Source: Hormoscilla sp.
GTDB lineage: Bacteria > Cyanobacteriota > Cyanobacteriia > Cyanobacteriales > Desertifilaceae
Assembly (NCBI GenBank): GCA_051439505.1
Contig: JBFRWI010000078.1
Location: 1 to 32,558, forward strand
Direction of reading: 5' to 3'
Length of the DNA stretch: 32,558 nucleotides
In this document: positions 8,040-21,472 of the stretch, in pieces
How positions within the stretch are numbered: the stretch's first letter is position 1
How the letters are laid out: each line of letters opens with the position of its first letter
Made by a program: the position numbers and the translations under genes
The notes under the pieces: model-generated
What the model was told of the DNA's origin: nothing
The model's database searches: none
The model's input: only the letters and a program-made list of their open reading frames with translations

Positions 8040-9029
8040 ATGTCGAGCAGTTTTGCAACGGTCTACATTCATCCCAGTCAGTTCCCCGATCGCTGGTATC
8101 AAAGCTATTTAGATGGATTTTCAGGGAAAGAAATCGATAATAGATTTCATTACGATAGCGTTAAGCAAAGTCAAAAGTGGTTGAAAATTCACGCGACATA
8201 CTCTCCATTGACGGTAAATGAAGATTGTATCCAGGCTTACGATCGCTGCTTTGCAGAAACGGCAAAACGCTTAGAAAACGAAAGTCAATTGCAACTGATT
8301 GCTTTAGGATGTGGAGGCGGAAGGAAAGATAGTCGTCTTTTGTCTTGTTTGTTGACAAAGGAAAGAGACATTATTTGTTATCCAGTAGATGTGAGCGTGT
8401 CTTTAGCTTTAATTTCCGCTCGCGCGATGGAAACAGTCGCTCCGAAAGCATCATTTAAACCTATTGTTTGCGACTTGCTTGCCGCCGGCGATCTCATTCA
8501 AATTATCGATAGAGAAGAAACGGGAAAACGAAAGATCGTGACGTTCTTTGGAATGATTCCCAACTTCTATCCGCAGCAAATACTACCCATTTTGAGGGAA
8601 TTTATCGTTCCGGGAGATGTTTTGCTATTTAGTGCGAATTTAGCTCCGGGAAAGGATTACTTGCAAGGAATTCGTGAGGTTGTGCCGCAATACGATAACG
8701 AACTGACTAAAGATTGGCTGATAACGATCTTAACCGATGCTGGGGTGGAAATAGATCGAGGGAAGATTTCAGTGGAGATAGAACCAGATGAAAATAATCC
8801 CGAAATATCGAGGATTGCCTTTTATTTTGAAGTGGAACGGGAGATCGACTTCAAAATAGACGATCGCGAATTCCAGTGGCAAATAGGCGATCGGGTACGC
8901 TTGTTTTTCTCCTATCGCTACACGACGGCAAAAATTCACGACATTCTCGGCAGCTATGGCATCAAGGTGCTAGAATCTTGGGAAGATAACAATCAAGAAG
9001 AAGGTGTTTACCTTTGTGAGGCAAGTTAA
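8040..9029 (+). CDS. EgtD-like (Methyltransf_33) SAM-dependent methyltransferase, divergent
   Basis: RFHYDS, LIALGCGGGRKD (SAM motif I), YPVDVS, FFGMIPNF, PGDVLLFSANL, QYDN and FSYRYT segments are collinear with EgtD motifs. Confidence 0.8.
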   Translation: MSSSFATVYIHPSQFPDRWYQSYLDGFSGKEIDNRFHYDSVKQSQKWLKIHATYSPLTVNEDCIQAYDRCFAETAKRLENESQLQLIALGCGGGRKDSRLLSCLLTKERDIICYPVDVSVSLALISARAMETVAPKASFKPIVCDLLAAGDLIQIIDREETGKRKIVTFFGMIPNFYPQQILPILREFIVPGDVLLFSANLAPGKDYLQGIREVVPQYDNELTKDWLITILTDAGVEIDRGKISVEIEPDENNPEISRIAFYFEVEREIDFKIDDREFQWQIGDRVRLFFSYRYTTAKIHDILGSYGIKVLESWEDNNQEEGVYLCEAS

Positions 9030-9031
9030 AA

Positions 9032-9757
9032 ATGCTAAAACAAGCACTGGTCACGGGATCGGCAAAGGGTATCGGACGAGCGATCGGCCTCGATCTTGCC
9101 AGTAAGGGATTTGATGTCGCATTTCACTACAACCGCAGTGAAATGGCGGCGAACCAAGCCTGTCAGGAAGCCCAAGCCTATGGAGTCAAAGCGATCGCCC
9201 TGCAAGCAGATCTCACCAATAGCGATCTGGCTAAATCTCTGGTTGAAAATGCTGTCGAAGAGTTGGGCGGTTTATCGGTGATTGTGAATAATGTCGGCAA
9301 CTATTGTCAGGAAGAGAATATGACGAGCCAAGTTTCCATCGCAGATTGGCATGAGGTGATCGATTCCAATCTCCATGCCACATTCTACGTGACGCGATCG
9401 GCCATACCCTACCTCAAGGCTGCCAATGGCGGTCGCATTGTTAATTTTGCTTGCGCCAGCGCTCAAAACCTCATTGCCCGAGAGGTTAACACCGCTTACA
9501 TTATTGCGAAAACAGGCATCATCATTTATACTAAATCTTTAGCAACGGAACTGATAAAAGATAAAATTACTGCTAATATTATATCTCCGGGCATTGTGGA
9601 AAATTCTTTCGATGTTGAGGAAATTACCCCGACGTTACCTGCCAAACGTCCCGCAACCCTGCAAGAAATAGTGCGATCGGCTTGGTTTTTTATCTGCCCC
9701 GAAGCTGAATACATTACCGGACAAAACATAGAAGTGTCAGGGGGCTGGTTTTTGTAA
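9032..9757 (+). CDS. Short-chain dehydrogenase/reductase, pteridine reductase (FolM/PTR1-like)
   Basis: TGSAKGIG, HYNRS, NNVG, YIIAK (YxxxK), YITGQNIEVSGG; adjacent to a DHPS-like gene. Confidence 0.8.
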   Translation: MLKQALVTGSAKGIGRAIGLDLASKGFDVAFHYNRSEMAANQACQEAQAYGVKAIALQADLTNSDLAKSLVENAVEELGGLSVIVNNVGNYCQEENMTSQVSIADWHEVIDSNLHATFYVTRSAIPYLKAANGGRIVNFACASAQNLIAREVNTAYIIAKTGIIIYTKSLATELIKDKITANIISPGIVENSFDVEEITPTLPAKRPATLQEIVRSAWFFICPEAEYITGQNIEVSGGWFL

Positions 9758-9797
9758 GGAATTTTAATCTAGTAGTTGATTTATAGAGGAGTGAAGA

Positions 9798-10685
9798 ATG
9801 CTAAAAATTGAAGATCTTTACGAACTACATGAAAAATATCGAGATGCACTCGATGTCAAAGTTGAAGAATTTACAATTGGCAACAAGAATTTTAAGTTTA
9901 ATTCGGAAAAAGCTATTTTAGGAGTGGTAAACCTTTCTACCGACTCTTGGTATCGTGAAAGTGTCTGCTTGAGTGGGGAACAGGCAATTCGTCGCGGTAT
10001 GGTACTCAATGCCCAGGGAGCGGATCTGGTCGATATTGGCGCGGAATCTACTTTAGGGAACGCACAAAGAATTGAAGATGTCAAGCAAAACAGCCAAATT
10101 TTACCCGTCCTTAAAGCCCTCAACCAAGCTGGAGTTTTAACATCCATTGAAACCTATTACCCCGATGTAGTTCGGGAATGCTTGAAAGCGGGAGCCAATG
10201 TTATCAATTTAACCGGAACTGCCGGGACAGAAGAAATTTATCGAATTATTTCCGAATTCGATGCCGGGGTAATTATCTGTTACGTTCAAGGAGAAAACGT
10301 GCGCGAAGTGGGTGATTTTAAATTTGGAGAGGATCCGGCTAATTTGATGTACGAGTATTTCGCGCGGGAAATTGAAACCGCAACTAAATTTGGAATTCGC
10401 AAAATATTTGTCGATGCGGGGTTGGGTTTTTATTACAAAAACCTCCAAGATAGCGAGCAACGCATTAGCTACCAAATGAAGACTTTTTTGAAGACATTCC
10501 GCCTCCGCAAATTAGGGTTTCCCGTTTGTCACGCTCTTCCCCATGCGTTTGAATGTTTTGGCGAAGAAGTTCGCAGTGCCGAGCCGTTTTTTGCCGTATT
10601 GGCTGCCTTGGGGAAAACAGATTTGTTTCGGACTCACGAAGTTCCTAAAATCAAAGCTGTTTTGGATACGTTGAGTTATTTTTAA
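9798..10685 (+). CDS. Dihydropteroate synthase-like pterin-binding TIM barrel (non-canonical)
   Basis: GVVNLSTDSW, DIGAEST, SIETY, VDAGLGF and LFRTHEV match FolP motifs, but the G-x-SRKS motif is absent. Confidence 0.85.
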   Translation: MLKIEDLYELHEKYRDALDVKVEEFTIGNKNFKFNSEKAILGVVNLSTDSWYRESVCLSGEQAIRRGMVLNAQGADLVDIGAESTLGNAQRIEDVKQNSQILPVLKALNQAGVLTSIETYYPDVVRECLKAGANVINLTGTAGTEEIYRIISEFDAGVIICYVQGENVREVGDFKFGEDPANLMYEYFAREIETATKFGIRKIFVDAGLGFYYKNLQDSEQRISYQMKTFLKTFRLRKLGFPVCHALPHAFECFGEEVRSAEPFFAVLAALGKTDLFRTHEVPKIKAVLDTLSYF

Positions 10686-10754
10686 TTGCGAATTGAGAAT
10701 GGTAAAATGGAGCAATACTCAATTTTCCATTCTCAATTTTCCATCCTCAATTTT
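10686..10754. repeat. Heptamer short tandem repeats (STRR-like) between convergent genes
   Basis: CTCAATTTTCCATTCTCAATTTTCCATCCTCAATTTTC, preceded by the inverted-sense AATTGAGAATGGTAAAATGGAG. Confidence 0.65.
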
Positions 10755-12137
10755 CTATTTTAAGACTGAATTAAGTTGTTCTTGATGTTGCTTAGGAATA
10801 TTCTGAGGAGGAGATATTTGCAAGTAAGATTCGTCGAACTCAATATTCGGTATCTGGGCCAGGAAACCCAGAGGTTCGCCGTTTGTAAGACGCAGTTTTT
10901 TGCATTTCGCTAGAGCCATTAAAGTTTCACGCTGTTCGCCAACACATTCAAATGGCTTTTCAGCATCAGAGTTTGATAAACGGATCCAAACGTCCTCTAG
11001 CTTTTTACTGCTTAACAGGTCTTGTCCTACCACCTGTATGGCAAAATTAGAATCGGTTACAGCCTCAATCAAAGCATAAGAAAAAGCACATTTTGGACAT
11101 TCACAACACCAGCGATAACTTCCCTCATCCCACTGTGCTTCGTTGCAGGAAGTCAGATCTTTCAATATATCTTTTTTCCAAAGAGAAAGCTGATGAACTG
11201 TCGCGATGGAGTAACTTTCTTCGCAGATACTAACATACCTGAATGGCAACCCCTTGCAAGCTAAGAAGTTGTTAAAACGCTTGATATAAGCAGCTCCCTT
11301 GGCGCTTTGATGATTGACTTCCCGCCCGCGATAAGTGGCATTAGATTCATTAGAACTTTTATCATTTGCCAAGACAATAAACCGATGTCCCTGCTGGTGC
11401 GCGATTATCATCATCAGGAAAAGTGCATTTGTGATTGTGGGATCGTTGCGAACTCCCCTGTAAGCAAAATGTTCTGATGGGTCTTCCTGGGGATGGGCTT
11501 GTATTTCCCAAAAGTGGGTTTGATTTCTCATGTAATCGAACACTGGAAATTTCCGCAACCAATTATTCCCTAATATTCCTCCAGCGTTGTGTAAGGTAAA
11601 TGCTTCCACGGGAATGTTAGCTTGCTGCATCCACTCAAAGGCAAATGTACTTTCCTTCCCGCCGCTGACAGCCAGAAGGTAGGTATCTTTCACTGATGAA
11701 TCCCCAAAATCTTCTACCAAATTAGTGGAAAACTTGATTTGAGGCATCTTATCCCAGTCCCACTTTTCTAGATAAAACTTTTGCTGAAGATACCAGTAAA
11801 TATCCTCATTCCACCAATCTGATTCCCACGGCAGACAGCCATACCAAGGTACTTCCACTATCTCGGGAGTACATATTTCACAAAGGCGGTAGATTTCAGC
11901 CATCGCTATCCCTATGAGAATAGACGGGTGAGTGCTTTGCGTCTTTTCTAACTCTGGTGGAAAGTCGATGTAGTAAAAATGCTCCCAACTATCAATCAGA
12001 AACGGAAAGATCAGTCGGCGATCGCTCCAATACGGTGCTTGAGAGGAAATGACTGAGCTTTTTGGGGATTCTCCGGTCGCCATGAATTTCATCCGCGACT
12101 CGTGATATCGACTCTTGAATTGTTCGGTTGTTCTCAT
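10755..12137 (-). CDS. MurL-like ATP-dependent (PP-loop) enzyme, UDP-MurNAc-L-Ala-L-Glu epimerase family
   Basis: SGGKES PP-loop, NDKSSN..VNHQSAKG, SCN..WCCECPKC and KPFECVGE are the motif series of the MurL family. Confidence 0.72.
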   Translation of the reverse strand: MRTTEQFKSRYHESRMKFMATGESPKSSVISSQAPYWSDRRLIFPFLIDSWEHFYYIDFPPELEKTQSTHPSILIGIAMAEIYRLCEICTPEIVEVPWYGCLPWESDWWNEDIYWYLQQKFYLEKWDWDKMPQIKFSTNLVEDFGDSSVKDTYLLAVSGGKESTFAFEWMQQANIPVEAFTLHNAGGILGNNWLRKFPVFDYMRNQTHFWEIQAHPQEDPSEHFAYRGVRNDPTITNALFLMMIIAHQQGHRFIVLANDKSSNESNATYRGREVNHQSAKGAAYIKRFNNFLACKGLPFRYVSICEESYSIATVHQLSLWKKDILKDLTSCNEAQWDEGSYRWCCECPKCAFSYALIEAVTDSNFAIQVVGQDLLSSKKLEDVWIRLSNSDAEKPFECVGEQRETLMALAKCKKLRLTNGEPLGFLAQIPNIEFDESYLQISPPQNIPKQHQEQLNSVLK

Positions 12138-12214
12138 TTTCTTGTCAATGTACTCGTAATAGTTTAGTCAAGTTTACCAAATTAGGTATGAGGACGCGAT
12201 GGGTGCGTCGCCGC

Positions 12215-12265
12215 CCGAACCCTAAAGGGTCCGGCTACAGATACAAAGCCCGCCTGCGCGGGCTA
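12215..12265 (+). repeat. Dispersed REP-like repeat, copy 1
   Basis: CCGAACCCTAAAGGGTCCGGCTACAGATACAAAGCCCGCCTGCGCGGGCTA, 48/51 identical to 27561-27611, with two internal hairpins. Confidence 0.9.
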
Positions 12266-12348
12266 TATGGCAAAACCCGGATGGACCCGACGCGATCGGT
12301 CTCCCCCGGGCTCGCTACTTGCACAAAAGGGGGGACTCCGTCGGATTA

Positions 12349-12891
12349 TTAGTTCCGCTTGATAGATAAAGTTACTCCCGAACTGTCTACTTTTTCGACC
12401 AGTTGGGCGATCGCATCTCCGGAGACTGGTTCTATCCAGTCGGGAGCTATTTCCGCCAATGGTACCAACACAAATGCTCTCTGGGTCATGCGCGGGTGGG
12501 GTATTTGCAGTTCGGGTGTTTCCAAAATTAAATCCTCAAATAGAAGTACATCCAAGTCTAGGGTTCGCGGTCCCCAACGCTCTTGACGGACTCGGCCAAA
12601 CTGGTCTTCAATGGCTAGTAGAGTCTTGAGTAATTCTTGGGGATTTAGTTCTACTTCTAGGATAGCACAGCCGTTGAGATAATCCGGTTGTGATGGACCT
12701 ATAGGGGCAGTGTTGTACCAGCTTGAGTAGGTTTTGACGGTAATTCCTGGAGTTTTGTCAATCTTTTCGAGGGCCCCTTCGAGGGTGGCCCGGGAGTCCC
12801 CCATGTTGCTGCCCAGGGCGATCGCGCTTTGGGTTAGTTTTGTTGTTGCTGCCTTGTCAGTTAATACCATCACTTGCGGGAAGTTTGTCAT
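12349..12891 (-). CDS. folK: 2-amino-4-hydroxy-6-hydroxymethyldihydropteridine diphosphokinase (HPPK)
   Basis: IALGSN, QPDYLN, GRVRQERWGPRTLDLD, IPHPRM, RAFVLVPLAEIAP; ATG 12891 overlaps the restored stop of the upstream gene (ATGA). Confidence 0.96.
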   Translation of the reverse strand: MTNFPQVMVLTDKAATTKLTQSAIALGSNMGDSRATLEGALEKIDKTPGITVKTYSSWYNTAPIGPSQPDYLNGCAILEVELNPQELLKTLLAIEDQFGRVRQERWGPRTLDLDVLLFEDLILETPELQIPHPRMTQRAFVLVPLAEIAPDWIEPVSGDAIAQLVEKVDSSGVTLSIKRN

Positions 12892-13581
12892 ATAACAGGT
12901 GTACGAGCGTACCATTGTAACCCGTTCGGTAGTTCTTCAGCAGCAAATTCGATTGTGTTGAACCCGCCGATGGCTGGGTTTGCCTGCTGGTAAGGAGGAA
13001 TGGACTAGCAATGGCTTCATCACCAGCACTCCGCCAGACTTAACTGTAGTAGTTATAGCATGTTTTTTGAGATTTGCAATTGTTTCCCGTGGGAGAATTC
13101 CCCGATTATGGGAACCTGGTATTAGACGTAGGGCACCGTTTTCGGCATCGGCATCATCTAGATGAATGCGTAGGGTTAACATTTTCTCTAATATCCTCAC
13201 TGGAGGCTGGACGTGATCTACCCCTTCTTTAATCGACCAGGGACCGAATCCATCAGTGTCAATGCGTTGGTTTACGGCAATAGTAAGATCCTGATGCCAG
13301 GATACTCCCCAGTTTGCTTCTGGGTTTTTGTCAAAGAAAATGCCCCGCACGGGAAAAGCCCGATCGCCTATTATCGGTTCTACGAGGGCGCGGAGGGCTG
13401 TTTCCTCACACAGTTGACTCACTCCCGGAACCAGTTCCAGGATGCGACGCATGGCATAGCTGCGCCCTAAAGCTAATTGCACTTCATATCTTAGAGCGGC
13501 TACCTGGTGCTTGTCAAGCACTCCCGGAACTATGCTAAACCCATACTGCTCTATGGTCTGACTGTAGCAGGTGCTCTCCAT
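12888..13581 (-). pseudogene. Phytanoyl-CoA dioxygenase (PhyH) family Fe/2OG enzyme with a 1-bp insertion frameshift near the C-terminus
   Basis: FFDK..NWGVSWHQD, RIHLDD, NGAL..PGSH, LVHSS, HRRV. Removing one base at ~12953 gives HRRVQHIEFAAEELPNGLQWY..., ending in TGA that overlaps the folK ATG. As sequenced, the ORF stops at 12937. Confidence 0.8.
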
Positions 13582-13695
13582 CCGATCGGTTATTAATAGT
13601 ATCTGGTATATCTTAGCCTGGAGATATCTGGATCGATTCAGCAATGGGCGATCGCCGTGGGGGCTACCCGTCCGAGAGAAAGATATTGACCATAT

Positions 13696-13725
13696 TTGAC
13701 ACAATTTAAGTCAATCGGCTAAGAT
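13696..13725 (+). promoter_or_regulatory. Putative sigma70 promoter of the dynamin-like operon with an overlapping palindrome
   Basis: TTGACA(13696-13701)-18 bp-TAAGAT(13720-13725); TTGAC-N9-GTCAA inverted repeat at 13696-13714. Confidence 0.5.
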
Positions 13726-13755
13726 GAGGTAAATATTACACAGAAGAGCTACTTG

Positions 13756-16347
13756 ATGGAACTAGAAAAACTGGGCCAATATAAGGAATATGGAGAATCG
13801 GTCCTCCAGGGACTAGAGGGGGTGAAGCAGCCCTTGCCAGACTGGGTGCCACTGGATCTCCGCCACAGTCTGGAAAGCCTCAGACAAGCAGCCACCAAAA
13901 CAGTAGAACGAGCATCGTCGCCGGTGAAGATCGGGGTGATGGGAGAATTCAGTAGCGGCAAAACCTTGCTGTTGGGAAGCTTGATCGGCTACGCGGATGC
14001 ATTACCGGTCAGTCAAACCCCCACTACAGGTAACGTAACTGCTGTCCACCTGCGGCAGGCAGACTCACTCGGGACCACTAAGGTGGACCAGTTTACGATT
14101 AAGTACCTGTCTCACTCTGAGGTAAAGGAATGCCTCAAGTTCATGCTGGAGGAAACGGCCCAGAGGGCCAGGGCGGCACAACTACCTCAGGTACAGCAGG
14201 AGACCCTGAAAAATTTGACCCCGACTCAGACTGTAGATAGTAATGCTATTCTCAAATGGTGCGAGCAAGCCTGGAATGCTGGCCAGAATAGCGAACTGCG
14301 ATCGCTCCTGCGGGAAATGGTAACATTCGTGCGGACCTACAGCGCCTATGGTCAGGATATCTGCGATCGGGTTTACCAGGTAGATGCTGCTACGGCCGAG
14401 GAGGGATTGAGACTGGCAGATCCGCCGATGGGTATTTTAGAACAGGACTTTGCTACCATGCTGGAAGAATCGGCATTGCCAGCTACCGGGAGTACAGCCT
14501 GGCAAAATCTGGCGATGCCATCAGCAAAAGACCTGCTTCACAGCTTCTCCTTGATCCGCCGGGTAGATGTGACAATCACGGTATCGAAGCAAATCTGGAA
14601 TCTGGAAGCTTTGGAAAAGGCACAGGAGTTCGTCATCCTAGACTTTCCGGGGTTGGGGGCGGCAGACTCGGGTGTTAGAGATAAGTTCCTGTCTCTGCGG
14701 GAGTTAAAAGAAGTCCAGACTATCCTGCTTCTGCTCAACGGTGGAAAACCTGGTGGGGATGCCGGTGCTCAAATCCGCAATATGATGGAACAGGATAAGG
14801 GCGTTGACCTCAGAGACCGGATCCTGGTGGGGGTCGGTCGCTTCAATCAACTGCCTTTAACAGGCACAGATCAAAAAAACATTGACGAACTGATTGGCTT
14901 TTTCGGAGACGATCGCCCGCCATTAGAGGAAGCAGAAGTCCTCCAGGAACTGAAAATTCTGAATCTAACGGTAGCGGGTGCGAGAAACTTGACCACGGAA
15001 AAAGACCGGATCGTGCTGCTGTCGCAAATGTGGGCGCTACAGGAATTAGCAGAACGTTTCAGTACCCTGCAAGTAGGCTCTCCAGAGTTTGCACCAGAAC
15101 TGGAAAACTATCTGGGAAAAGATGATGAGACGCGGTTGCGTCAGAAATGGCAGGAATTAAGTGAAAAGCTGATAGACTCAGGAGCAACTAAGATCCTGCG
15201 CCGACAGCTGCGGGACTTTGTAGATGACGGGGGGATTGGCAGACTGCGGGATTTGATCGTAGACCACGTGCAAGAGTATGGAGTCAAGCAACTCTATGAA
15301 GACACTCGTCGTCAGGCAGAGGCGTTGCGGAAAGAACTCAACAAGCTCAAAGGCATACTAGAGATCATCCCTGATTACATCCCGACCACGGAAAGTCAGG
15401 AGTTTGTCACCCTGCGTGAAAGTATCGAGAACATGGTGAGAACCTATAGAAAATTCAAAGAAGATTTGGAGAAAAAGCCCCTTCAAAATAATCACGGGGT
15501 GGCAGTCAGCGAAGTGGTAAAGTCAGAGCTGATATTTAGCATCCACAATTGGAAGGAGTGGAATTTACTGTTCAATAAAATGGCCTCCGGGACGATCGAG
15601 CCCCCCCGCAAAGATGGGGGAAAGGGCAAAGGAGTAATTGGCAGAGGTAAGAAGGAACGGGGACAAAAAAACCCCCTGCCCACGTCTAGCGACGATTTCT
15701 ATGAAACCTTTGCTAAGACGATGGCAGAAATGGAAAAATTCGCAGGTGCTCAGATCCGTCAGGCAGTTTTAGATATGTTGAGCCAGTTGTCGGGAACGGT
15801 GGAGGTAGAGCGCAGCAACATCAGTAAACTGATGCGTCCAGAGATGGAAGAGCAGATCGAGACGGAGTTTGGAGAGTCCGAAGCTGACCTATTTAATATC
15901 CTCCAGGAGGCAACGGATCCCAAGCAATGGACAGATCCAATTATAGAAGAAAGCTCGATCTCCGAGAATAGCCCGATCGACCCGGAAAAGATGTTCCCCC
16001 TGGCCCGTGGAGACGAAAAACATCAGAAGATAGGTCAAGTATTTGACTGGAGTCCAGATAAGAAGCATCCAGCACGGCCAAAACCATTTAATCATCAGAT
16101 GCTGGTGCTGCGGCTGCGAGATGAGATGAGTGCGAGTGCGGGGTTGAACCTGGTTCAGTATGTGAGCGAAAAAACTGAGAAGGTTAAATACGTGCTGCAG
16201 GAGACTTTGGAGGTTACTGAGGATATGTCAGAACTATTGCGAAACGAACGCTTGCTGAGGTATATAGCAACGTCAGAGTCGGACTCCAAATCTCCCGCCT
16301 GGTTGCAGACTCTTTCGCAAACAGCGTCGATTTCTTACCCAGATTAA
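13756..16347 (+). CDS. Dynamin-like large GTPase (SrfC/bacterial dynamin-like)
   Basis: G1 GEFSSGKT (13942-13965), G2 PTTGN, G3 DFPG (14641-14652), G4-like GRFN, long helical C-terminal stalk. Confidence 0.85.
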   Translation: MELEKLGQYKEYGESVLQGLEGVKQPLPDWVPLDLRHSLESLRQAATKTVERASSPVKIGVMGEFSSGKTLLLGSLIGYADALPVSQTPTTGNVTAVHLRQADSLGTTKVDQFTIKYLSHSEVKECLKFMLEETAQRARAAQLPQVQQETLKNLTPTQTVDSNAILKWCEQAWNAGQNSELRSLLREMVTFVRTYSAYGQDICDRVYQVDAATAEEGLRLADPPMGILEQDFATMLEESALPATGSTAWQNLAMPSAKDLLHSFSLIRRVDVTITVSKQIWNLEALEKAQEFVILDFPGLGAADSGVRDKFLSLRELKEVQTILLLLNGGKPGGDAGAQIRNMMEQDKGVDLRDRILVGVGRFNQLPLTGTDQKNIDELIGFFGDDRPPLEEAEVLQELKILNLTVAGARNLTTEKDRIVLLSQMWALQELAERFSTLQVGSPEFAPELENYLGKDDETRLRQKWQELSEKLIDSGATKILRRQLRDFVDDGGIGRLRDLIVDHVQEYGVKQLYEDTRRQAEALRKELNKLKGILEIIPDYIPTTESQEFVTLRESIENMVRTYRKFKEDLEKKPLQNNHGVAVSEVVKSELIFSIHNWKEWNLLFNKMASGTIEPPRKDGGKGKGVIGRGKKERGQKNPLPTSSDDFYETFAKTMAEMEKFAGAQIRQAVLDMLSQLSGTVEVERSNISKLMRPEMEEQIETEFGESEADLFNILQEATDPKQWTDPIIEESSISENSPIDPEKMFPLARGDEKHQKIGQVFDWSPDKKHPARPKPFNHQMLVLRLRDEMSASAGLNLVQYVSEKTEKVKYVLQETLEVTEDMSELLRNERLLRYIATSESDSKSPAWLQTLSQTASISYPD

Positions 16348-16434
16348 CATTGAACAAGTGCCATGTACATGGTATTATGTACATGGCCACCAGTGACAAA
16401 TCACAATTGACAATCACCAAAAGGAAAAGAGCAG

Positions 16435-19400
16435 ATGCCAGTCAAGATAGAGCTTTTTACTAATTACCCCCTGCGGACGAAAAGAAGTGACCCGATGGCA
16501 TTGGACCTGCCCGCGATCGAACTGGCTCCAGCTAGCAGCAAAAATCCGGCCTATATCTCCAGGGTCAGCATATCTGTCAGGGGAAACCCAACAGGGCTAG
16601 CAAACATGATTCAATTTGCCTACAAAGAGGTGACGGCGATCAATCCGATAAAACTGGAAAGGCCCCAGCGAGTCAGGCAATATGATTGCAAGCTGGAGGA
16701 ACCATCAATACCTGCAGATGTCAACTGCATTTTGGAGGTGAAGGTGGAGTATTTTGACTCAGACTCGGAAGGGAATCCTGACATGTCGGTGACCAAAGAG
16801 ACCAAGAGTACCTGTCATATTCGGACAAGTTTTGCCTCAGAGTCAGAGCAGGAGTTAGAGGAATCGGTGGATGTAGGTGAGGTAGAGTCCATAGAGGCAG
16901 AAACGAATGATAAAAATAGCAAAGAAGAAAAAATATTGCCGAGCTTTCCCGGTTGGTTTGCTATAGATTTCGGGACATCTAACTCCACGGTGACACTCTA
17001 CGACCCGAAATATACTGTCCCCCCGGATAGTTTGCCTAGGGAACAGGAAAAAAGTTTGCGGACGGGTTTGGCAGGGTGGTTGAACGATCGCCCGACGGAG
17101 GAGATACCTCGGGTGACGGCATCAGATTGGGAGTCGGAGTGGGAAAAGCTGACGGCGGAATTAAGCAAAGAATTTGCTGGCCTAGACCCCGGGGAGCACG
17201 GTAATCTAGGCGATCGCATATTTAAGGAGAGTGACAATATTGGCTTATTGTCGGGGATCCGTCTGGTGGAAATCGGTTTGAGCATCTGCCGAGATTGGTT
17301 TCGGCGCTCGGCGAGCAAACATCTGCACGAGATCTACCACGAAGTATTTCGGAAACCGACCCTAGAGTGGCAGAGTTTGATTCCGGTAGAACTAGACGAA
17401 CTGCGCCGGGAAAGTGAAATTACCAGCGAGTTAGAAATAGAAGAAATTGGTGGTAGCGCCGAGGGCAGGTTAAAAGTGCTGATGGGCGATCGGGCCAGGC
17501 AGGATAGACTGAATGCGATCGCCCAAGGGCAGGACATCCAAGGCAAGTTCCATCACTCGCCCAAGCGCTATTTGGGTCAAAACCGCTCGATCCCGGCGAT
17601 CGTGAATGGCAGCAGCGAGCAAGTGGCGGTGCAAAAGCTGATCCAAGCAGCGTTCTCTCATCTGATCCAGTTGACGAAAGATTACCGCGATCGCAACCAA
17701 GAGCAATGTTCTGTAGGGCAGTTCAACAGGGCGGTGGTGACTTACCCAACGATATCTCCACCAAAGGTACATAAGGAGGTGAAGGAGCTGGTCGGGAAAC
17801 TGGGCATCTCGGACGTGCAGATGGCTTATGACGAAGCGGTATCCATAGCGATCTTCTTCCTGTGGCGAGAATTCGGCGGGGATTTGAATGTGGGGATTGA
17901 GTCTTTCAAAACCCGCTGTCGGAATTACTTTGACCAATGGTCCCAAAACGTCTTGGTGCTAGATATCGGTGGGGGAACCACGGACCTAGCCTTGATTCGC
18001 CTGGCACTCAAAGAGGTAGATCCGTTTGAGTCGGATGAAGACCGAGGGGACGGGGGACGCTACTATATTATCACCCCCAAACTGCTAGGCTCTTCCGGCC
18101 ATTTACAGTTGGGGGGCGAGTTGATCAGCCTGCGGATATTTCACCTCCTGAAGGCCGCGATCGCCGACTGTCTGCTGACGGCAGTGGCAGCCGGAAATTT
18201 AGAACCGGATATATTGGGGATGCAGCCAGACGAACTGAACGAACGCTTCCTAGATAACGGCAAATTTCAGGCGGGCCTGCTGTTGGCATGCGTGGACAAG
18301 GAGAACCAGGAAGGGGATGTTGCCTACAAAGACGCCCTAGAGGCTGCCGAGAAAGTGCTGTCCACCCGTTGGAAAAATTCCCCCGCTCGTCAGCAAGCCT
18401 TTTACACGCTCTGGGAATACGCGGAAGAGGCGAAACTGAAGCTGGGGAAAAAAGACCAGACCTTAGAGGGAACAGAACCTACCTTTGTCCTGGACGGGCA
18501 GAAAATCTCGGAACTGCTAGCACAAAACGATGTCCAATTACCCCAAAGCAGCCTGAATCATCTGAACGTGACTCTCAGCGTGGCCCAATTTGAAAGGGCT
18601 GTCAAGCCAGCAATCAAAGAGGCGATCGGGATCGCCAGAGGGCTGATGGAAAGTGGCTTAAGTAGACAGGAAGCCAGTCAGTCCAACGAACTAAAAGAGC
18701 AACTAGATTGGTTGATTCTGTCGGGAAAAACCTGCAACCTCTACTTAGTAGAACAGGAACTATATCGGCAATTTAGCAAATCAGACCGTTTCGTGTGGAA
18801 CCCCGAGAAAATCACCTTCGTGCCGGAATACACGAAGCTAGCAACTTCGGCGGGAGCATGCTACGCGGAAAAGCTCAGGCAACTGGTGTTTGCCCCCGAA
18901 GATGCCAAGGAAGTGCTACGGAAGGGGGCAAATCAGCTATACATCGATGTAAAGAACCTGTTTTATTTTCTACCCTGCTCCTTCCTGCTCAAGACCCAAG
19001 ATATCCAGTCTATACCGATCTTTAAGGCAGGGGATAAGCTTTATCAACTCGACCCCAAGGACAAGGTAGCGAAGGTGCGGAGCGAGGGATGGAAGGGAGC
19101 ACAATTGTCGATTTTTATCGAACGGAAAGACTTTGAAGATAAAACGCCACAGCTATGGGGTAGCTACGACGGTCAGCAAAAGCTAGCGACTCCACTGGGA
19201 ATGACGGGGACTGAGTTTAACGAAACAATCAAAGTTCAGTTTGAGATCGACCAAGAACTGAATATCAGCCTGCTGTTTTGCCAAGGGAAGCCCCACTACT
19301 TGATGCAGGCTAAGATCGAGAGTCTAGATGCAACAGAGGCAATCAAAAGGCCAGCAATAATTTCTGAGGGGAAAGTGGTTTGCGATATTGCTGTTAACGT

Positions 19401-19845
19401 GGCCGAATCGGCAAGCGCTCTGAAAACCGACGCTCATACGGTAGTATTTACGGCGGAGAAGGACTATAGCAAGTCTCTGAAGAACTTTCGCTATGAAGGG
19501 GAGGCGACCCCAGAGGTAGGAAGTGGGTTAATCAGCGAGCCATTACCGCCGTTCCCATTGAGTGGGAAACATACTTTCTACTTCCAATTCCGCGATCCAG
19601 ACACCAATAAATGGGAACGAATTGGCGAATTGCCTCAACCGGGTGGGAAAACAGAGTATCCCTGCGAATATCGGGTCACGCTGGATGACAAAGGGATCCT
19701 GAGAATTCATGCAGGTGAGGTTCCCTACTGGACAGGGAACAATAAGGAATGTCTGAAGGAGTACGGATGCGTGTTTCGGACTGCTCTAGAATCGCAACCA
19801 AACGACATCGAGGAAAAGCGCAACCCCTTCTCTGGCACTCATTAA
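16435..19845 (+). CDS. Large atypical Hsp70/actin-fold ATPase (SrfB-like)
   Basis: AIDFGTSNS (phosphate 1), VVTYP, YDEAVSIA, LDIGGGTTD (phosphate 2), GHLQLGGE, AEEAKLKL, LILSGKT, KLATSAGA. At 1136 aa it has extra N- and C-terminal domains. Confidence 0.88.
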   Translation: MPVKIELFTNYPLRTKRSDPMALDLPAIELAPASSKNPAYISRVSISVRGNPTGLANMIQFAYKEVTAINPIKLERPQRVRQYDCKLEEPSIPADVNCILEVKVEYFDSDSEGNPDMSVTKETKSTCHIRTSFASESEQELEESVDVGEVESIEAETNDKNSKEEKILPSFPGWFAIDFGTSNSTVTLYDPKYTVPPDSLPREQEKSLRTGLAGWLNDRPTEEIPRVTASDWESEWEKLTAELSKEFAGLDPGEHGNLGDRIFKESDNIGLLSGIRLVEIGLSICRDWFRRSASKHLHEIYHEVFRKPTLEWQSLIPVELDELRRESEITSELEIEEIGGSAEGRLKVLMGDRARQDRLNAIAQGQDIQGKFHHSPKRYLGQNRSIPAIVNGSSEQVAVQKLIQAAFSHLIQLTKDYRDRNQEQCSVGQFNRAVVTYPTISPPKVHKEVKELVGKLGISDVQMAYDEAVSIAIFFLWREFGGDLNVGIESFKTRCRNYFDQWSQNVLVLDIGGGTTDLALIRLALKEVDPFESDEDRGDGGRYYIITPKLLGSSGHLQLGGELISLRIFHLLKAAIADCLLTAVAAGNLEPDILGMQPDELNERFLDNGKFQAGLLLACVDKENQEGDVAYKDALEAAEKVLSTRWKNSPARQQAFYTLWEYAEEAKLKLGKKDQTLEGTEPTFVLDGQKISELLAQNDVQLPQSSLNHLNVTLSVAQFERAVKPAIKEAIGIARGLMESGLSRQEASQSNELKEQLDWLILSGKTCNLYLVEQELYRQFSKSDRFVWNPEKITFVPEYTKLATSAGACYAEKLRQLVFAPEDAKEVLRKGANQLYIDVKNLFYFLPCSFLLKTQDIQSIPIFKAGDKLYQLDPKDKVAKVRSEGWKGAQLSIFIERKDFEDKTPQLWGSYDGQQKLATPLGMTGTEFNETIKVQFEIDQELNISLLFCQGKPHYLMQAKIESLDATEAIKRPAIISEGKVVCDIAVNVAESASALKTDAHTVVFTAEKDYSKSLKNFRYEGEATPEVGSGLISEPLPPFPLSGKHTFYFQFRDPDTNKWERIGELPQPGGKTEYPCEYRVTLDDKGILRIHAGEVPYWTGNNKECLKEYGCVFRTALESQPNDIEEKRNPFSGTH

Positions 19846-19853
19846 GGCAAGAG

Positions 19854-19991
19854 CGTAGGTTGGGTTAAGCGTCAGCGCAACCCAACCTAGCAGATGGCCA
19901 GCAGTATCGTAGTATCGTAGGTTGGGTTAAGCGTCAGCGCAACCCAACCTCGTAGATGGCAAGTTGGGTTTCGTGCCTCAACCCAACCTAC
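19854..19991. repeat. GTAG-family REP cluster (BIME/REPIN-like)
   Basis: Two identical 35-bp CGTAGGTTGGGTTAAGCGTCAGCGCAACCCAACCT copies (19854-19888, 19916-19950) plus an inverted variant GTTGGGTTTCGTGCCTCAACCCAACCTAC (19963-19991). Confidence 0.9.
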
Positions 19992-20037
19992 AGCTCTACA
20001 GCTCGAACAAAGGAAAAGAAAAAAGGAGAGCATCCGC

Positions 20038-21261
20038 ATGCAGCACCTCAGCAAGTTATTAGAGATAGAAAAATCGAATTTAGCCTGGGTACTGCGGTTG
20101 GGATTAAACGGACTGCGGGCTCAACTACGGGAAGCCAAAAATAAAGATGCAACAGACCCTGGAATTAACGAATGTGAAGAACTGCTGAGGGAGCTGGATA
20201 GCCTTTTGGAACCACCATTAGAACCAGTAGAGGAGAGTAAAGAAACTGATCCCCCCCCAGAGGAGGAATCTCCCTTTGAGGAATCTCCCTTTGAGAAGTC
20301 TCCCTCTGAGGAGTCTCCCTTTGAGGAGGATGAATATCCGTTCGATCCTGTACCGCAGCCCCCAGGAGAACTGAAACTATCCCGCCTGCGCTCGACTTTG
20401 ATTGAAGACCAGAAGCTATTAGAATATGTGGGTAAAGTCGAATTGAGCGACAGCGAGGATGCTCTTTTGTGGAACGAGGTGCAACGTCTGCTGTTGCGGG
20501 TTCCCGCCAGGGAGGCTGACTCTTGGCAAGAACTGGCTATGAGTCTGGCCCAGTCAGTAGGGGCTTCCGAGAATAGGCGATCGCTGGTGAAGCTGCCCTT
20601 CAGTCGGGATGAAGTGATTTATCCGGGTCTCACAGGAGAGGTGAAGGCTCAGGGGTTGCGTTTTTCGACAAAGAAGGCGATCGATCGGCTCCTAACAGAG
20701 GATAAATTAGAGGGAGAACTGTATTTCCTAGGCTGTGTTGTTGATATTTGCCTAAAATTCATGGAAATGGACCCCAATTTGCACCATGCTTTGAAGACGG
20801 TCAATCAATTTGGTGTCATATCTTTGAACGAGGAGTCACAGAACGAGAAGTCACAGAAAGATAAGTATTCGGAGGCGCTGATCGAGCGATTTGGGCGGGC
20901 TGTAGCTGCGGAGAAAACTGCCGATCCAGTAAAGATCCTGCGTGGGAGACTAGACCTAGATGAGGCAATTCACTCTTTGGTATATTATCCCCCAGCAGAT
21001 CGCTTTTCTTGGTGGGGTAAATTACAACAGCAAGCACGAGATCCTCTCCAACAGCTGGCCGATCGGGCGCGTCAGGCAGGTCATCAAGTGCAGGTGCGAT
21101 CGCTATGGGGATCCTATGCTAATGTTTATTCTCGGTCAAAGGACAACTTAGAATTAGATAGTGGAGGCACTCCTGGGGAAGTGTCGGCTTGCCTGCGAGT
21201 TTATGCTAAAATAGATTCCGAAGTATTGCCTGGGAGAGTGCTGTTTCGATCTTTACGTTAG
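20038..21261 (+). CDS. Hypothetical protein, third gene of the dynamin/Hsp70 operon; GrpE-like C-terminal beta head
   Basis: 407-aa ORF with AAGGAG SD. The helical body is followed by GTPGEVSACLRVYAKIDSEVLPGRVLF, which resembles the GrpE C-terminal beta pattern. Confidence 0.75.
   Translation: MQHLSKLLEIEKSNLAWVLRLGLNGLRAQLREAKNKDATDPGINECEELLRELDSLLEPPLEPVEESKETDPPPEEESPFEESPFEKSPSEESPFEEDEYPFDPVPQPPGELKLSRLRSTLIEDQKLLEYVGKVELSDSEDALLWNEVQRLLLRVPAREADSWQELAMSLAQSVGASENRRSLVKLPFSRDEVIYPGLTGEVKAQGLRFSTKKAIDRLLTEDKLEGELYFLGCVVDICLKFMEMDPNLHHALKTVNQFGVISLNEESQNEKSQKDKYSEALIERFGRAVAAEKTADPVKILRGRLDLDEAIHSLVYYPPADRFSWWGKLQQQARDPLQQLADRARQAGHQVQVRSLWGSYANVYSRSKDNLELDSGGTPGEVSACLRVYAKIDSEVLPGRVLFRSLR
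20263..20322 (+). repeat. In-frame 15-bp tandem repeat (4 units; EESPF-type)
   Basis: GAGGAATCTCCCTTT x2, GAGAAGTCTCCCTCT, GAGGAGTCTCCCTTT. Confidence 0.9.
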
Positions 21262-21325
21262 GGGCAACGAACGGATTATACCATTTTGTCGAAACAATGC
21301 AACAATTAGTTTAAGGATTATGGTA

Positions 21326-21407
21326 TTAGTCTGTTTTCAACCGACTGAGCGCCGCGTTACCTGGCTCGGTGCCTGGTAACGCGGGGGTTTGCATCCCCCG
21401 GCGGGCT
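21326..21407 (-). repeat. Composite palindromic repeat: copy of the 31888-31946 family with a different central hairpin
   Basis: Ends TTAGTCTGTTTTCAACCGACT and GGGGGTTTGCATCCCCCGGCGGGCT match the reverse complement of 31888-31946. The centre is the hairpin CCGCGTTACC..GGTAACGCGG (21352-21384). Confidence 0.75.
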
Positions 21408-21472
21408 GACAGCGAAGTGAGGGAATTTCTCGCACATAATTGTAGCAACCTTTTTTACAAATGGTATTATTA

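What the first reader, a model, noticed from the sequence alone, without database searches (positions are those of the whole stretch)
13756..21261. Three-gene module: dynamin-like GTPase + giant atypical Hsp70 + GrpE-like protein, a candidate uncharacterised NTP-driven membrane-remodelling or defence system
Seen: three co-oriented genes behind one putative promoter. The first is an ~860-aa P-loop GTPase with dynamin-type G1-G3 motifs and a long helical stalk. The second is an 1136-aa protein with all actin/Hsp70 ATPase motifs. The third is a 407-aa protein ending in a GrpE-like beta motif. Known: bacterial dynamin-like proteins act in membrane repair and anti-phage defence (DynA, LeoABC/Eleos), and the SrfB (Hsp70-like)/SrfC (GTPase-like) pair occurs in poorly understood stress/conflict operons. 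Inference: this is a self-contained machine in which a dedicated Hsp70 and its own nucleotide-exchange factor assemble or disassemble a dynamin polymer, for example during phage attack or membrane stress. No DnaJ is present, and none of the genes looks like a housekeeping chaperone.
Basis: partly seen in the sequence, partly recalled or inferred. Interest (0 to 1): 0.85.

Follow-up and report, generated by a model that had tools for sequence, protein, structure and literature searches.

The report
Dynamin, giant Hsp70, GrpE-head operon
Three neighbouring genes (a dynamin-like GTPase, an oversized Hsp70-type ATPase and a partner ending in the head domain of the Hsp70 helper GrpE) form a conserved operon that almost all heterocyst-forming cyanobacteria appear to keep; the first two were noted as a pair in 2018, but its job is untested.

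Summary
The triad is real. A (864 aa) has dynamin G1-G3 and a variant G4. B (1136 aa) folds as an Hsp70 ATPase (Z 26.8) with intact catalytic residues, a substrate-domain-like part and no lid. C (407 aa) ends in a GrpE-type beta head (Z 6.0 over 57 residues), seen by fold only, not by sequence. All three occur in the same 44 of 45 genomes of one family (inferred: heterocyst formers), in 17 of 283 other order members, and in distant metagenome contigs. The Nostoc PCC 7120 homologues alr1146-48 form one transcript, induced 2- to 9-fold after nitrogen removal, and are published as Nostocales signature genes of unknown function. A+B is the 'chaperone clade' of Jilly et al. 2018, whose text never mentions GrpE. 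Best reading (0.4): a private Hsp70 and exchange factor cycle a dynamin polymer for membrane upkeep in filaments. An immune role is the main rival (0.3). Binding could not be modelled. This scan found the module before on other DNA (e1-7820183, e1-7820187).

The parts
13696..13725 (+). sigma-70-type promoter-like site (TTGACA-18-TAAGAT), about 30 nt before the A start
   Evidence: 10 of 12 matches; number of sites in the region not above chance. The PCC 7120 transcript has a 29-nt 5' leader.
13753..16347 (+). gene A, dynamin-like GTPase, 864 aa (ATG at 13756); G1 at 13942-13965, G3 at 14641-14652, variant G4 R363-F364-N/D; no predicted membrane segment
   Evidence: Jilly 'chaperone clade'
16435..19845 (+). 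gene B, giant Hsp70-type ATPase, 1136 aa
16435..16824 (+). B residues 1-130: all-beta N-terminal domain followed by an acidic disordered linker (134-166); dispensable
   Evidence: 15 intact matches begin only at residues 155-201; 991-aa forms
16939..18882 (+). B residues 169-816: Hsp70 nucleotide-binding domain with large insertions
   Evidence: Z 26.8, rmsd 3.1, 358 aligned to Ssb1 (3gl1_B); MreB Z 23.3
18967..19842 (+). B residues 845-1136: beta-rich region holding a part like the Hsp70 substrate-binding beta domain, no long alpha-helical lid
   Evidence: secondary structure; BiP 5e84_A 463 aligned, model 168-1122 against chain 24-528
20038..21261 (+). gene C, 407 aa: three-helix N-terminal bundle (1-60), acidic linker (about 60-110), mixed middle domain, four-helix bundle (217-350), beta head
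21085..21258 (+). C residues 350-407: GrpE-type beta head
   Evidence: GrpEL1 9bls_B Z 6.0, rmsd 2.9, 57 aligned, chain 159-217; E. coli GrpE 1dkg_A rank 2 (E 0.095) and four more GrpE entries among the rows shown
19853..19995 (.). short genome-wide repeats in the B-C spacer (not part of the module)
   Evidence: (120 blastn hits in the own genome)

Best explanation
A self-contained chaperone-dynamin machine of filamentous bacteria. A binds GTP and polymerises, probably on a membrane surface. B is a dedicated Hsp70-type ATPase that grips A (or A's cargo) through its beta-rich C-terminal part and uses ATP to assemble or take apart the A polymer. C docks on B's nucleotide-binding domain by its GrpE-type head and releases ADP, so the cycle runs apart from the housekeeping DnaK/DnaJ/GrpE. 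The likely use is membrane upkeep or remodelling under stress and during cell differentiation. Shown here: the genes, their order, co-occurrence, joint decay, the folds of B and C's head, and conserved catalytic residues. Published: one transcript and a nitrogen response in PCC 7120. Inferred: every binding step, exchange activity, membrane action and the physiological role.
For: The same 44 of 45 genomes of family f6 hold A, B and C; 41 of those 44 have them contiguous in A-B-C order, and all three carry stops in G314. Order is kept at 25-38% identity in metagenome contigs L062, L063 and L068. Catalytic positions of B are kept: D178 and T181 in 68 of 69 rows (1 gap), K377 in 67 of 69, and E467, D510 and D517 in 69 of 69. 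B matches full-length DnaK at E 6e-17. C's head matches GrpEL1. alr1146-alr1147-alr1148 form one 7727-nt transcript (PMC10287535 supplement). Fold change after nitrogen removal at 12 h/21 h is 9.1/5.3, 2.5/1.8 and 8.7/7.7 (PMC4365693 Table 6). Flanks are housekeeping and vary between genera. An Hsp70 with co-chaperones taking apart a membrane-shaping polymer is known for clathrin and for chloroplast VIPP1 (recalled, no call).
Against: A has no predicted membrane segment (highest hydropathy window 1.1) and was not folded. C shows no sequence likeness to GrpE (hhalign E 0.095-0.3, within the shuffled range; GrpE not among the 25 of 89 Pfam families shown for 134 members) and lacks the long GrpE stalk in the model. 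C lies away from A-B in 3 of 44 genomes and was not found in 7 of 46 named loci with at least 5 kb downstream. A second data set shows only log2 +0.99 at 9 h and -0.07 at 24 h. The module is dispensable in the window's own genus: intact in G402, interrupted in G403, in pieces in G404, not found in G405. No J-domain partner was found.
Confidence: 0.4

Rival explanations
1. An immune (conflict) system of multicellular bacteria: B senses an invader or its damage, with C as the reset, and licenses A to seal, sever or kill the infected cell so that infection does not spread along the filament.
For: A's closest PADLOC model is LeoA in 18 of 18 members (best E 9.5e-8; residues 12-100 in the window protein). 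Distant loci have conflict-type neighbours: CHAT protease and PP2C in L063, TIR in L062, an Hsp70-FHA protein in L064, a second small Hsp70 in L062. Kaur et al. describe GTPase + HSP70 + GrpE themes in multicellular bacteria (PMC7159879 section 29). Presence outside f6 is patchy (17 of 283) with decay in the own genus. An NB-ARC/TPR gene sits between A and B in L013 and a similar TPR gene in L060.
Against: Retention in 44 of 45 genomes of one family, mostly single-copy and 50-60% identical, is unlike a typical defence system. No effector domain was found in A, B or C. Of 134 flanking ORFs scanned, 25 hit PADLOC, mostly generic domains (6 methyltransferases, 5 Uma2-like, 2 kinases, 2 TnpB-like, 2 TPR); no control set was run. 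The window's neighbours are folate, redox and glycosylation genes.
Confidence: 0.3
2. A machine specific to heterocyst (or akinete/hormogonium) differentiation, such as reshaping thylakoids into the honeycomb or narrowing the septum.
For: All three genes are in the published heterocyst-specific core set and are nitrogen-induced. TCCGGA occurs in 12 of 49 upstream regions of A against 18 of 341 for other ORFs. A weak HetZ ChIP peak (1.19-fold) lies at alr1147/alr1148 in one mutant data sheet (PMC13342950 supplement).
Against: Named homologues occur in Okeania, Trichodesmium, Oscillatoria, Kamptonema and Hormoscilla, which do not form heterocysts (recalled), and in non-cyanobacterial contigs. 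Nostoc azollae forms heterocysts yet lacks alr1147. The TCCGGA sites fall at two unrelated distances in related genomes and are missing upstream of A in L110. No mention in the HetR ChIP or DIF-promoter supplements searched.
Confidence: 0.15
3. A soluble, membrane-independent machine: A works like the membrane-less bacterial dynamins (chaperone rescue or nucleoid and division roles; recalled for RdcA and CrfC), with B as its partner chaperone or as a polymer-forming actin-fold protein; C's head is a reused fold without exchange activity.
For: No hydrophobic segment in A or C. B has large insertions and no lid. C has no GrpE sequence signal.
Against: B is closer to Hsp70 than to MreB, FtsA or ParM (Z 26.8 against 23.3, 19.8, 19.4) and keeps a substrate-domain-like part. 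A GrpE-type head next to an Hsp70 in a conserved operon is unlikely to be chance.
Confidence: 0.15

Closest known systems
'Chaperone clade' of cyanobacterial dynamin-like proteins (Jilly et al. 2018, PMC5827413)
   Same: Dynamin-like gene with a DnaK-domain gene downstream; 11 listed members, with neighbours labelled 'molecular chaperone' or 'SrfB'. The Mastigocoleus BC008 row has a four-helix-bundle gene downstream, exactly as in locus L008, so it is this family.
   Different: The paper has no third gene (GrpE: 0 occurrences), no structure, no link to alr1146-48, no non-cyanobacterial members in its cyanobacterial table, and no experiment on this clade in the passages read.
Nostoc PCC 7120 alr1146-alr1147-alr1148 (PMC2823733, PMC4365693, PMC10287535)
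   Same: Lengths 847/1128/364 aa. A 1128-aa B homologue carries accession BAB73104.1 (P0475); reading that accession as alr1147 rests on length, order and recall. Same reported range: Nostocales plus Streptomyces aurantiacus and Frankia.
   Different: Listed only as hypothetical proteins. In a quick tree the window's B falls in a different cyanobacterial lineage from the PCC 7120 protein, so it is a homologue and strict orthology is not shown.
GAP1-N2 DO-GTPase conflict systems, HSP70+GrpE theme (Kaur et al. 2020, PMC7159879)
   Same: GTPase, HSP70 and GrpE in one neighbourhood, sometimes a second short HSP70; multicellular hosts; kinase/PP2C themes.
   Different: Those have DO-GTPases, GAP1 and FNIII-DnaJ proteins, mainly in actinobacteria and firmicutes; 'dynamin' does not occur in that paper. 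The triad here has none of those partners.
LeoABC/Eleos, DynA and Campylobacter DLP1/2
   Same: Dynamin-type G domain: LeoA model E 5e-6; 5owv E 7e-4 and Slr0869 E 0.038 with the A profile.
   Different: Those are dynamin pairs or fusions without a dedicated Hsp70 (recalled). The match covers only the P-loop region and is far below the NCBIfam cut-offs (13.4 against 325 bits).
DnaK-DnaJ-GrpE
   Same: Hsp70 ATPase fold and catalytic residues; GrpE head fold.
   Different: B is 1136 aa with extra domains and no lid; C lacks the GrpE sequence profile and long stalk; no J protein; a separate canonical GrpE exists in the genome.
SrfABC
   Same: Databases label B 'virulence factor SrfB'.
   Different: PF07520 scores 19 bits against a cut-off of 27.1 over 71 of 992 positions; A does not hit a SrfC family.

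Membership tests
Bacterial dynamin-like protein (A) | G1, G2, G3 motifs in a Dynamin_N domain | tested here: met
Bacterial dynamin-like protein (A) | canonical G4 (N/T)KxD (motif recalled) | tested here: inconclusive
   R363-F364 invariant, followed by N or D, after the hydrophobic strand where G4 is expected; a variant, not confirmed on a model
Bacterial dynamin-like protein (A) | helical neck and trunk | not tested
Bacterial dynamin-like protein (A) | lipid binding, polymerisation, GTP hydrolysis | not testable with these tools
   needs bench work; no membrane segment predicted
Jilly 2018 chaperone clade | cyanobacterial dynamin-like gene with a DnaK-domain gene downstream, same family as the listed members | tested here: met
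Hsp70 (B) | Hsp70-type nucleotide-binding domain with catalytic residues | tested here: met
Hsp70 (B) | substrate-binding beta domain | tested here: inconclusive
   BiP alignment runs on to chain residue 528 (463 aligned), but the domain was not folded and searched alone
Canonical DnaK (B) | alpha-helical lid and DnaK family score | tested here: not met
   C-terminal region is beta-rich; 12.7 bits against a cut-off of 648
GrpE (C) | C-terminal beta head fold | tested here: met
   (Z 6.0, 57 of about 58 residues; a small domain, moderate score)
GrpE (C) | PF01025 sequence profile | tested here: not met
   (C is not among the own genome's four hits)
GrpE (C) | long dimeric coiled-coil stalk | tested here: inconclusive
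   monomer model shows compact bundles instead; a dimer was not modelled
GrpE (C) | nucleotide-exchange activity on an Hsp70 | not testable with these tools
   needs bench work
GAP1-N2 DO-GTPase system | DO-GTPase(s) with GAP1 and FNIII-repeat genes | tested here: not met
   one dynamin-type GTPase only; no such families among 22 window ORFs; no further gene conserved beside the triad across genera
LeoABC/Eleos | two or three dynamin-derived genes reaching the family models | tested here: not met
SrfABC | full-length SrfB and SrfC family matches | tested here: not met
J-domain co-chaperone (C N-terminus, considered) | HPD motif between two helices | tested here: not met
   HPD in 3 of 120 rows; no profile match

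The most novel reading that the evidence does not exclude
A J-protein-independent Hsp70 engine with a monomeric GrpE-head exchange factor drives the assembly cycle of a bacterial dynamin. It became fixed in heterocyst-forming cyanobacteria as a filament-level membrane-severing or sealing machine, perhaps domesticated from an immune system of multicellular bacteria.
Probability: 0.25. Interest if true: 0.8.

Novelty: new variant of a known kind. Interest (0 to 1): 0.55.

Why it matters
It gives folds and a testable mechanism to three of the 51 'unknown function' genes in a published heterocyst core set (PMC4365693), in a genetically tractable model (Nostoc PCC 7120, one transcript). If B and C control A, it would be a bacterial case of a dedicated Hsp70 regulating a dynamin, and a new build of nucleotide-exchange factor. 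It also corrects the database label 'virulence factor SrfB' on these proteins.

Tried and rejected
Profile-profile comparison of C with 27 GrpE sequences was not above shuffled controls (shallow template). The wide fold search of whole C gave only generic helical bundles, best Z 8.6, and did not list GrpE; the head was not folded alone. C's N-terminal hairpin as a J-domain was rejected. NtcA boxes upstream of A: 2 of 51 against 4.3 expected. DIF1 promoter: inconclusive. The Atlas search on B 835-1136 gave nothing above 0.81. Nine weak A hits outside f6 cover only the P-loop region; the one checked is a TerB-dynamin of another family. The three extra GrpE-profile hits in the own genome have no dynamin or Hsp70 motif pair beside them in the stretches fetched. 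One RNA-library run holds contigs of a relative about 95% alike across all three genes; contigs cannot show transcription. Paper searches without a description of the triad: 0 papers; alr1146-48: 2 papers; 0. Subscription journals are mostly missing from the library, and bioRxiv supplements were closed, so a mutant or regulon entry could exist unseen.
Full report
Observation. The three ORFs exist as described: A 13753-16347 (864 aa), B 16435-19845 (1136 aa) and C 20038-21261 (407 aa), all on +, with GC like the surroundings. A TTGACA-18-TAAGAT site at 13696-13725 is the best of 6 promoter-like sites, with 6.6 expected by chance. The neighbours are PhyH, FolK and a MurL-like gene upstream and a GGDEF/EAL gene downstream. 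None of the 22 window ORFs scanned hits DnaJ. Each gene is single-copy in the 93%-complete own genome, which has a canonical GrpE elsewhere.

Gene A. Dynamin_N scores over its cut-off. In 54 aligned rows G64, F66, S67, G69, K70, T92 and D297-F-P-G300 are invariant; where G4 is expected there is an invariant R363-F364 followed by N or D. The A profile's only PDB hits are the Campylobacter dynamin-like protein (E 7e-4) and Slr0869 (E 0.038). LeoA is the nearest PADLOC model in 18 of 18 members, over residues 12-100 in the window protein, far below the family cut-off. No membrane segment is predicted. A was not folded.

Gene B. The model (pLDDT 86) has an all-beta domain (1-130), an acidic disordered linker, an Hsp70 ATPase domain (169-816; Z 26.8, rmsd 3.1, 358 aligned to Ssb1, ahead of MreB at 23.3) and a beta-rich tail. 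Foldseek's top rows are full-length DnaK (E 6e-17). The alignment to BiP runs to chain residue 528, which suggests a substrate-binding beta domain; there is no long helical lid. Catalytic positions are kept in 67-69 of 69 rows; their DnaK equivalents are recalled. The N-terminal domain is absent from 15 intact matches. The 'SrfB' label rests on a sub-threshold match.

Gene C. No family is hit; 252 representatives at 50% identity form its own family, with Atlas clusters in Cyanobacteriota and Actinomycetota. The model (pLDDT 92) ends in a small beta domain. Foldseek had no match at E 0.001, but ranked E. coli GrpE second (E 0.095) with four more GrpE entries among the rows shown. Re-alignment places model 350-407 on GrpEL1 159-217 (Z 6.0, rmsd 2.9, 57 residues). 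Against this, hhalign with GrpE sequences was not above shuffles, the wide search did not list GrpE, and the long GrpE stalk is replaced by compact bundles. C is therefore GrpE-like in its head and is not a GrpE family member.

Distribution. In 400 other genomes of the phylum, B and C were found in 44 of 45 genomes of family f6 and in 0 of 355 others; full-length A was in the same 44. From the listed coordinates, 41 of the 44 are contiguous A-B-C, C lies elsewhere in G268, G071 and G026, and all three carry stops in G314. In an overlapping sample of the order, C was in 17 of 17 f6 genomes and 17 of 283 others. In the own family it was in 3 of 13, all of the own genus: intact in G402, interrupted in G403, in pieces in G404. 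Families are unnamed; I infer that f6 is the heterocyst-forming family from the named loci and the published lists. In those named loci A was present in 49 of 49 with room upstream and C in 39 of 46 with 5 kb downstream; no fourth gene is conserved across genera. Metagenome contigs L062, L063 (GC 64-67%) and L068 hold A-B-C in order at 25-38% identity, and L064, L065, L067 and L069 hold B-C; L066 is too short. Kin are not independent. A quick tree of 30 B rows (SH-aLRT only, careful search unfinished) splits the cyanobacterial copies into two lineages: the window with Okeania and Trichodesmium beside Scytonema, Calothrix and Fischerella, and PCC 7120 with Oscillatoria and Kamptonema. Two B homologues share a longest-contig length (P0009/P0044, P0011/P0057), which fits old paralogy; transfer is not excluded.

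What is in print. PMC2823733 (passages, supplement search) lists alr1146 (847 aa), alr1147 (1128) and alr1148 (364) as Nostocales-specific hypothetical proteins. PMC4365693 (section 13 read whole) has all three among 51 heterocyst-core genes of unknown function, with fold changes 9.1/5.3, 2.5/1.8 and 8.7/7.7 at 12/21 h after nitrogen removal, alr1147 absent in Nostoc azollae, and outside hits only in Streptomyces aurantiacus and Frankia. P0475 (1128 aa, BAB73104.1) is a B homologue; that it is alr1147 rests on length, order and recall. PMC10287535 (passages, supplement rows) gives one 7727-nt transcript, log2 +0.99 at 9 h and -0.07 at 24 h. PMC13342950 (supplement search only) has one weak HetZ peak, 1.19-fold. 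Supplements of PMC4192349 and PMC6133370 had no mention. PMC5827413 (passages, whole supplement) defines the 'chaperone clade' of 11 dynamin-like proteins with a DnaK-domain gene downstream; its Mastigocoleus row matches locus L008 down to the inserted four-helix-bundle gene. PMC7159879 (passages, section 29) describes DO-GTPase systems with HSP70 and GrpE. I reached both papers through earlier scan notes, two of which describe this same module on other DNA. Passages of PMC9950537, PMC9239167 and bioRxiv 10.64898/2026.10.19.760177 added nothing on the triad. No paper describing the triad or a mutant was found in the searches listed under Tried and rejected.

Mechanism. Joint presence, joint decay and one transcript say the three proteins work together. 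An intact Hsp70 beside a protein with a GrpE head most simply means a private ATPase and exchange-factor pair, and the always-adjacent dynamin is the obvious client. I put 0.4 on a membrane-upkeep machine in which B, recharged by C, assembles or dismantles A polymers. Defence gets 0.3: distant loci carry CHAT, TIR, PP2C and FHA neighbours, but in cyanobacteria the operon behaves like a core gene set, and only 25 of 134 flanking ORFs hit PADLOC, mostly through generic domains, with no control set. A heterocyst-only role gets 0.15: TCCGGA is in 12 of 49 upstream regions against 18 of 341 controls, but at two distances and among kin, and non-heterocystous carriers exist. A soluble, membrane-free role gets 0.15. 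No binding step was tested.

Verdict. The feature is real and conserved, and is a new variant of a known kind. The A-B pair is published as a neighbourhood. The GrpE-head third partner, the architecture of B, the link to alr1146-48 and the spread to other phyla were not found in print. Interest 0.55.

Noticed in passing
window 19853-19995 and 21262-21472: Both spacers hold short repeats dispersed through the own genome (120 and 204 blastn hits); the B-C spacer has tandem palindrome-like copies.
   Followed up: partly
window 8040-13704: SAM-dependent methyltransferase, short-chain reductase and pterin-binding genes, then a MurL-like gene, folK and a PhyH dioxygenase. PhyH has no match between folK and A in G402 and G403, so it may be a recent insert.
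   Followed up: partly
L062:11208-13835, L063:11065-18813, L064:2028-3320: High-GC loci extend the triad with a second short Hsp70-like gene, a coiled-coil protein, PP2C, a zinc-ribbon protein or an Hsp70-FHA fusion; CHAT and TIR genes lie nearby.
   Followed up: partly
L013:4259-7588, L060:4581-7904: An 1110-aa NB-ARC/TPR gene (L013; a similar TPR gene in L060) lies between A and B on the opposite strand in two Scytonema loci.
   Followed up: no
L113:4992-5816 (also L114, L115): In one genus B lacks its N-terminal domain and a co-oriented DUF2887 gene sits between A and B.
   Followed up: partly
L106 (G314:C2:328820-335906): All three genes are decayed together in one otherwise complete genome.
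   Followed up: partly
L105:4782-7385: An unrelated 867-aa TerB-dynamin fusion in family f3 explains at least one of the weak A hits.
   Followed up: partly
L021:14531-15544 and related Rivularia-type loci: An endonuclease/exonuclease/phosphatase gene directly precedes C in about 11 loci of one lineage.
   Followed up: no
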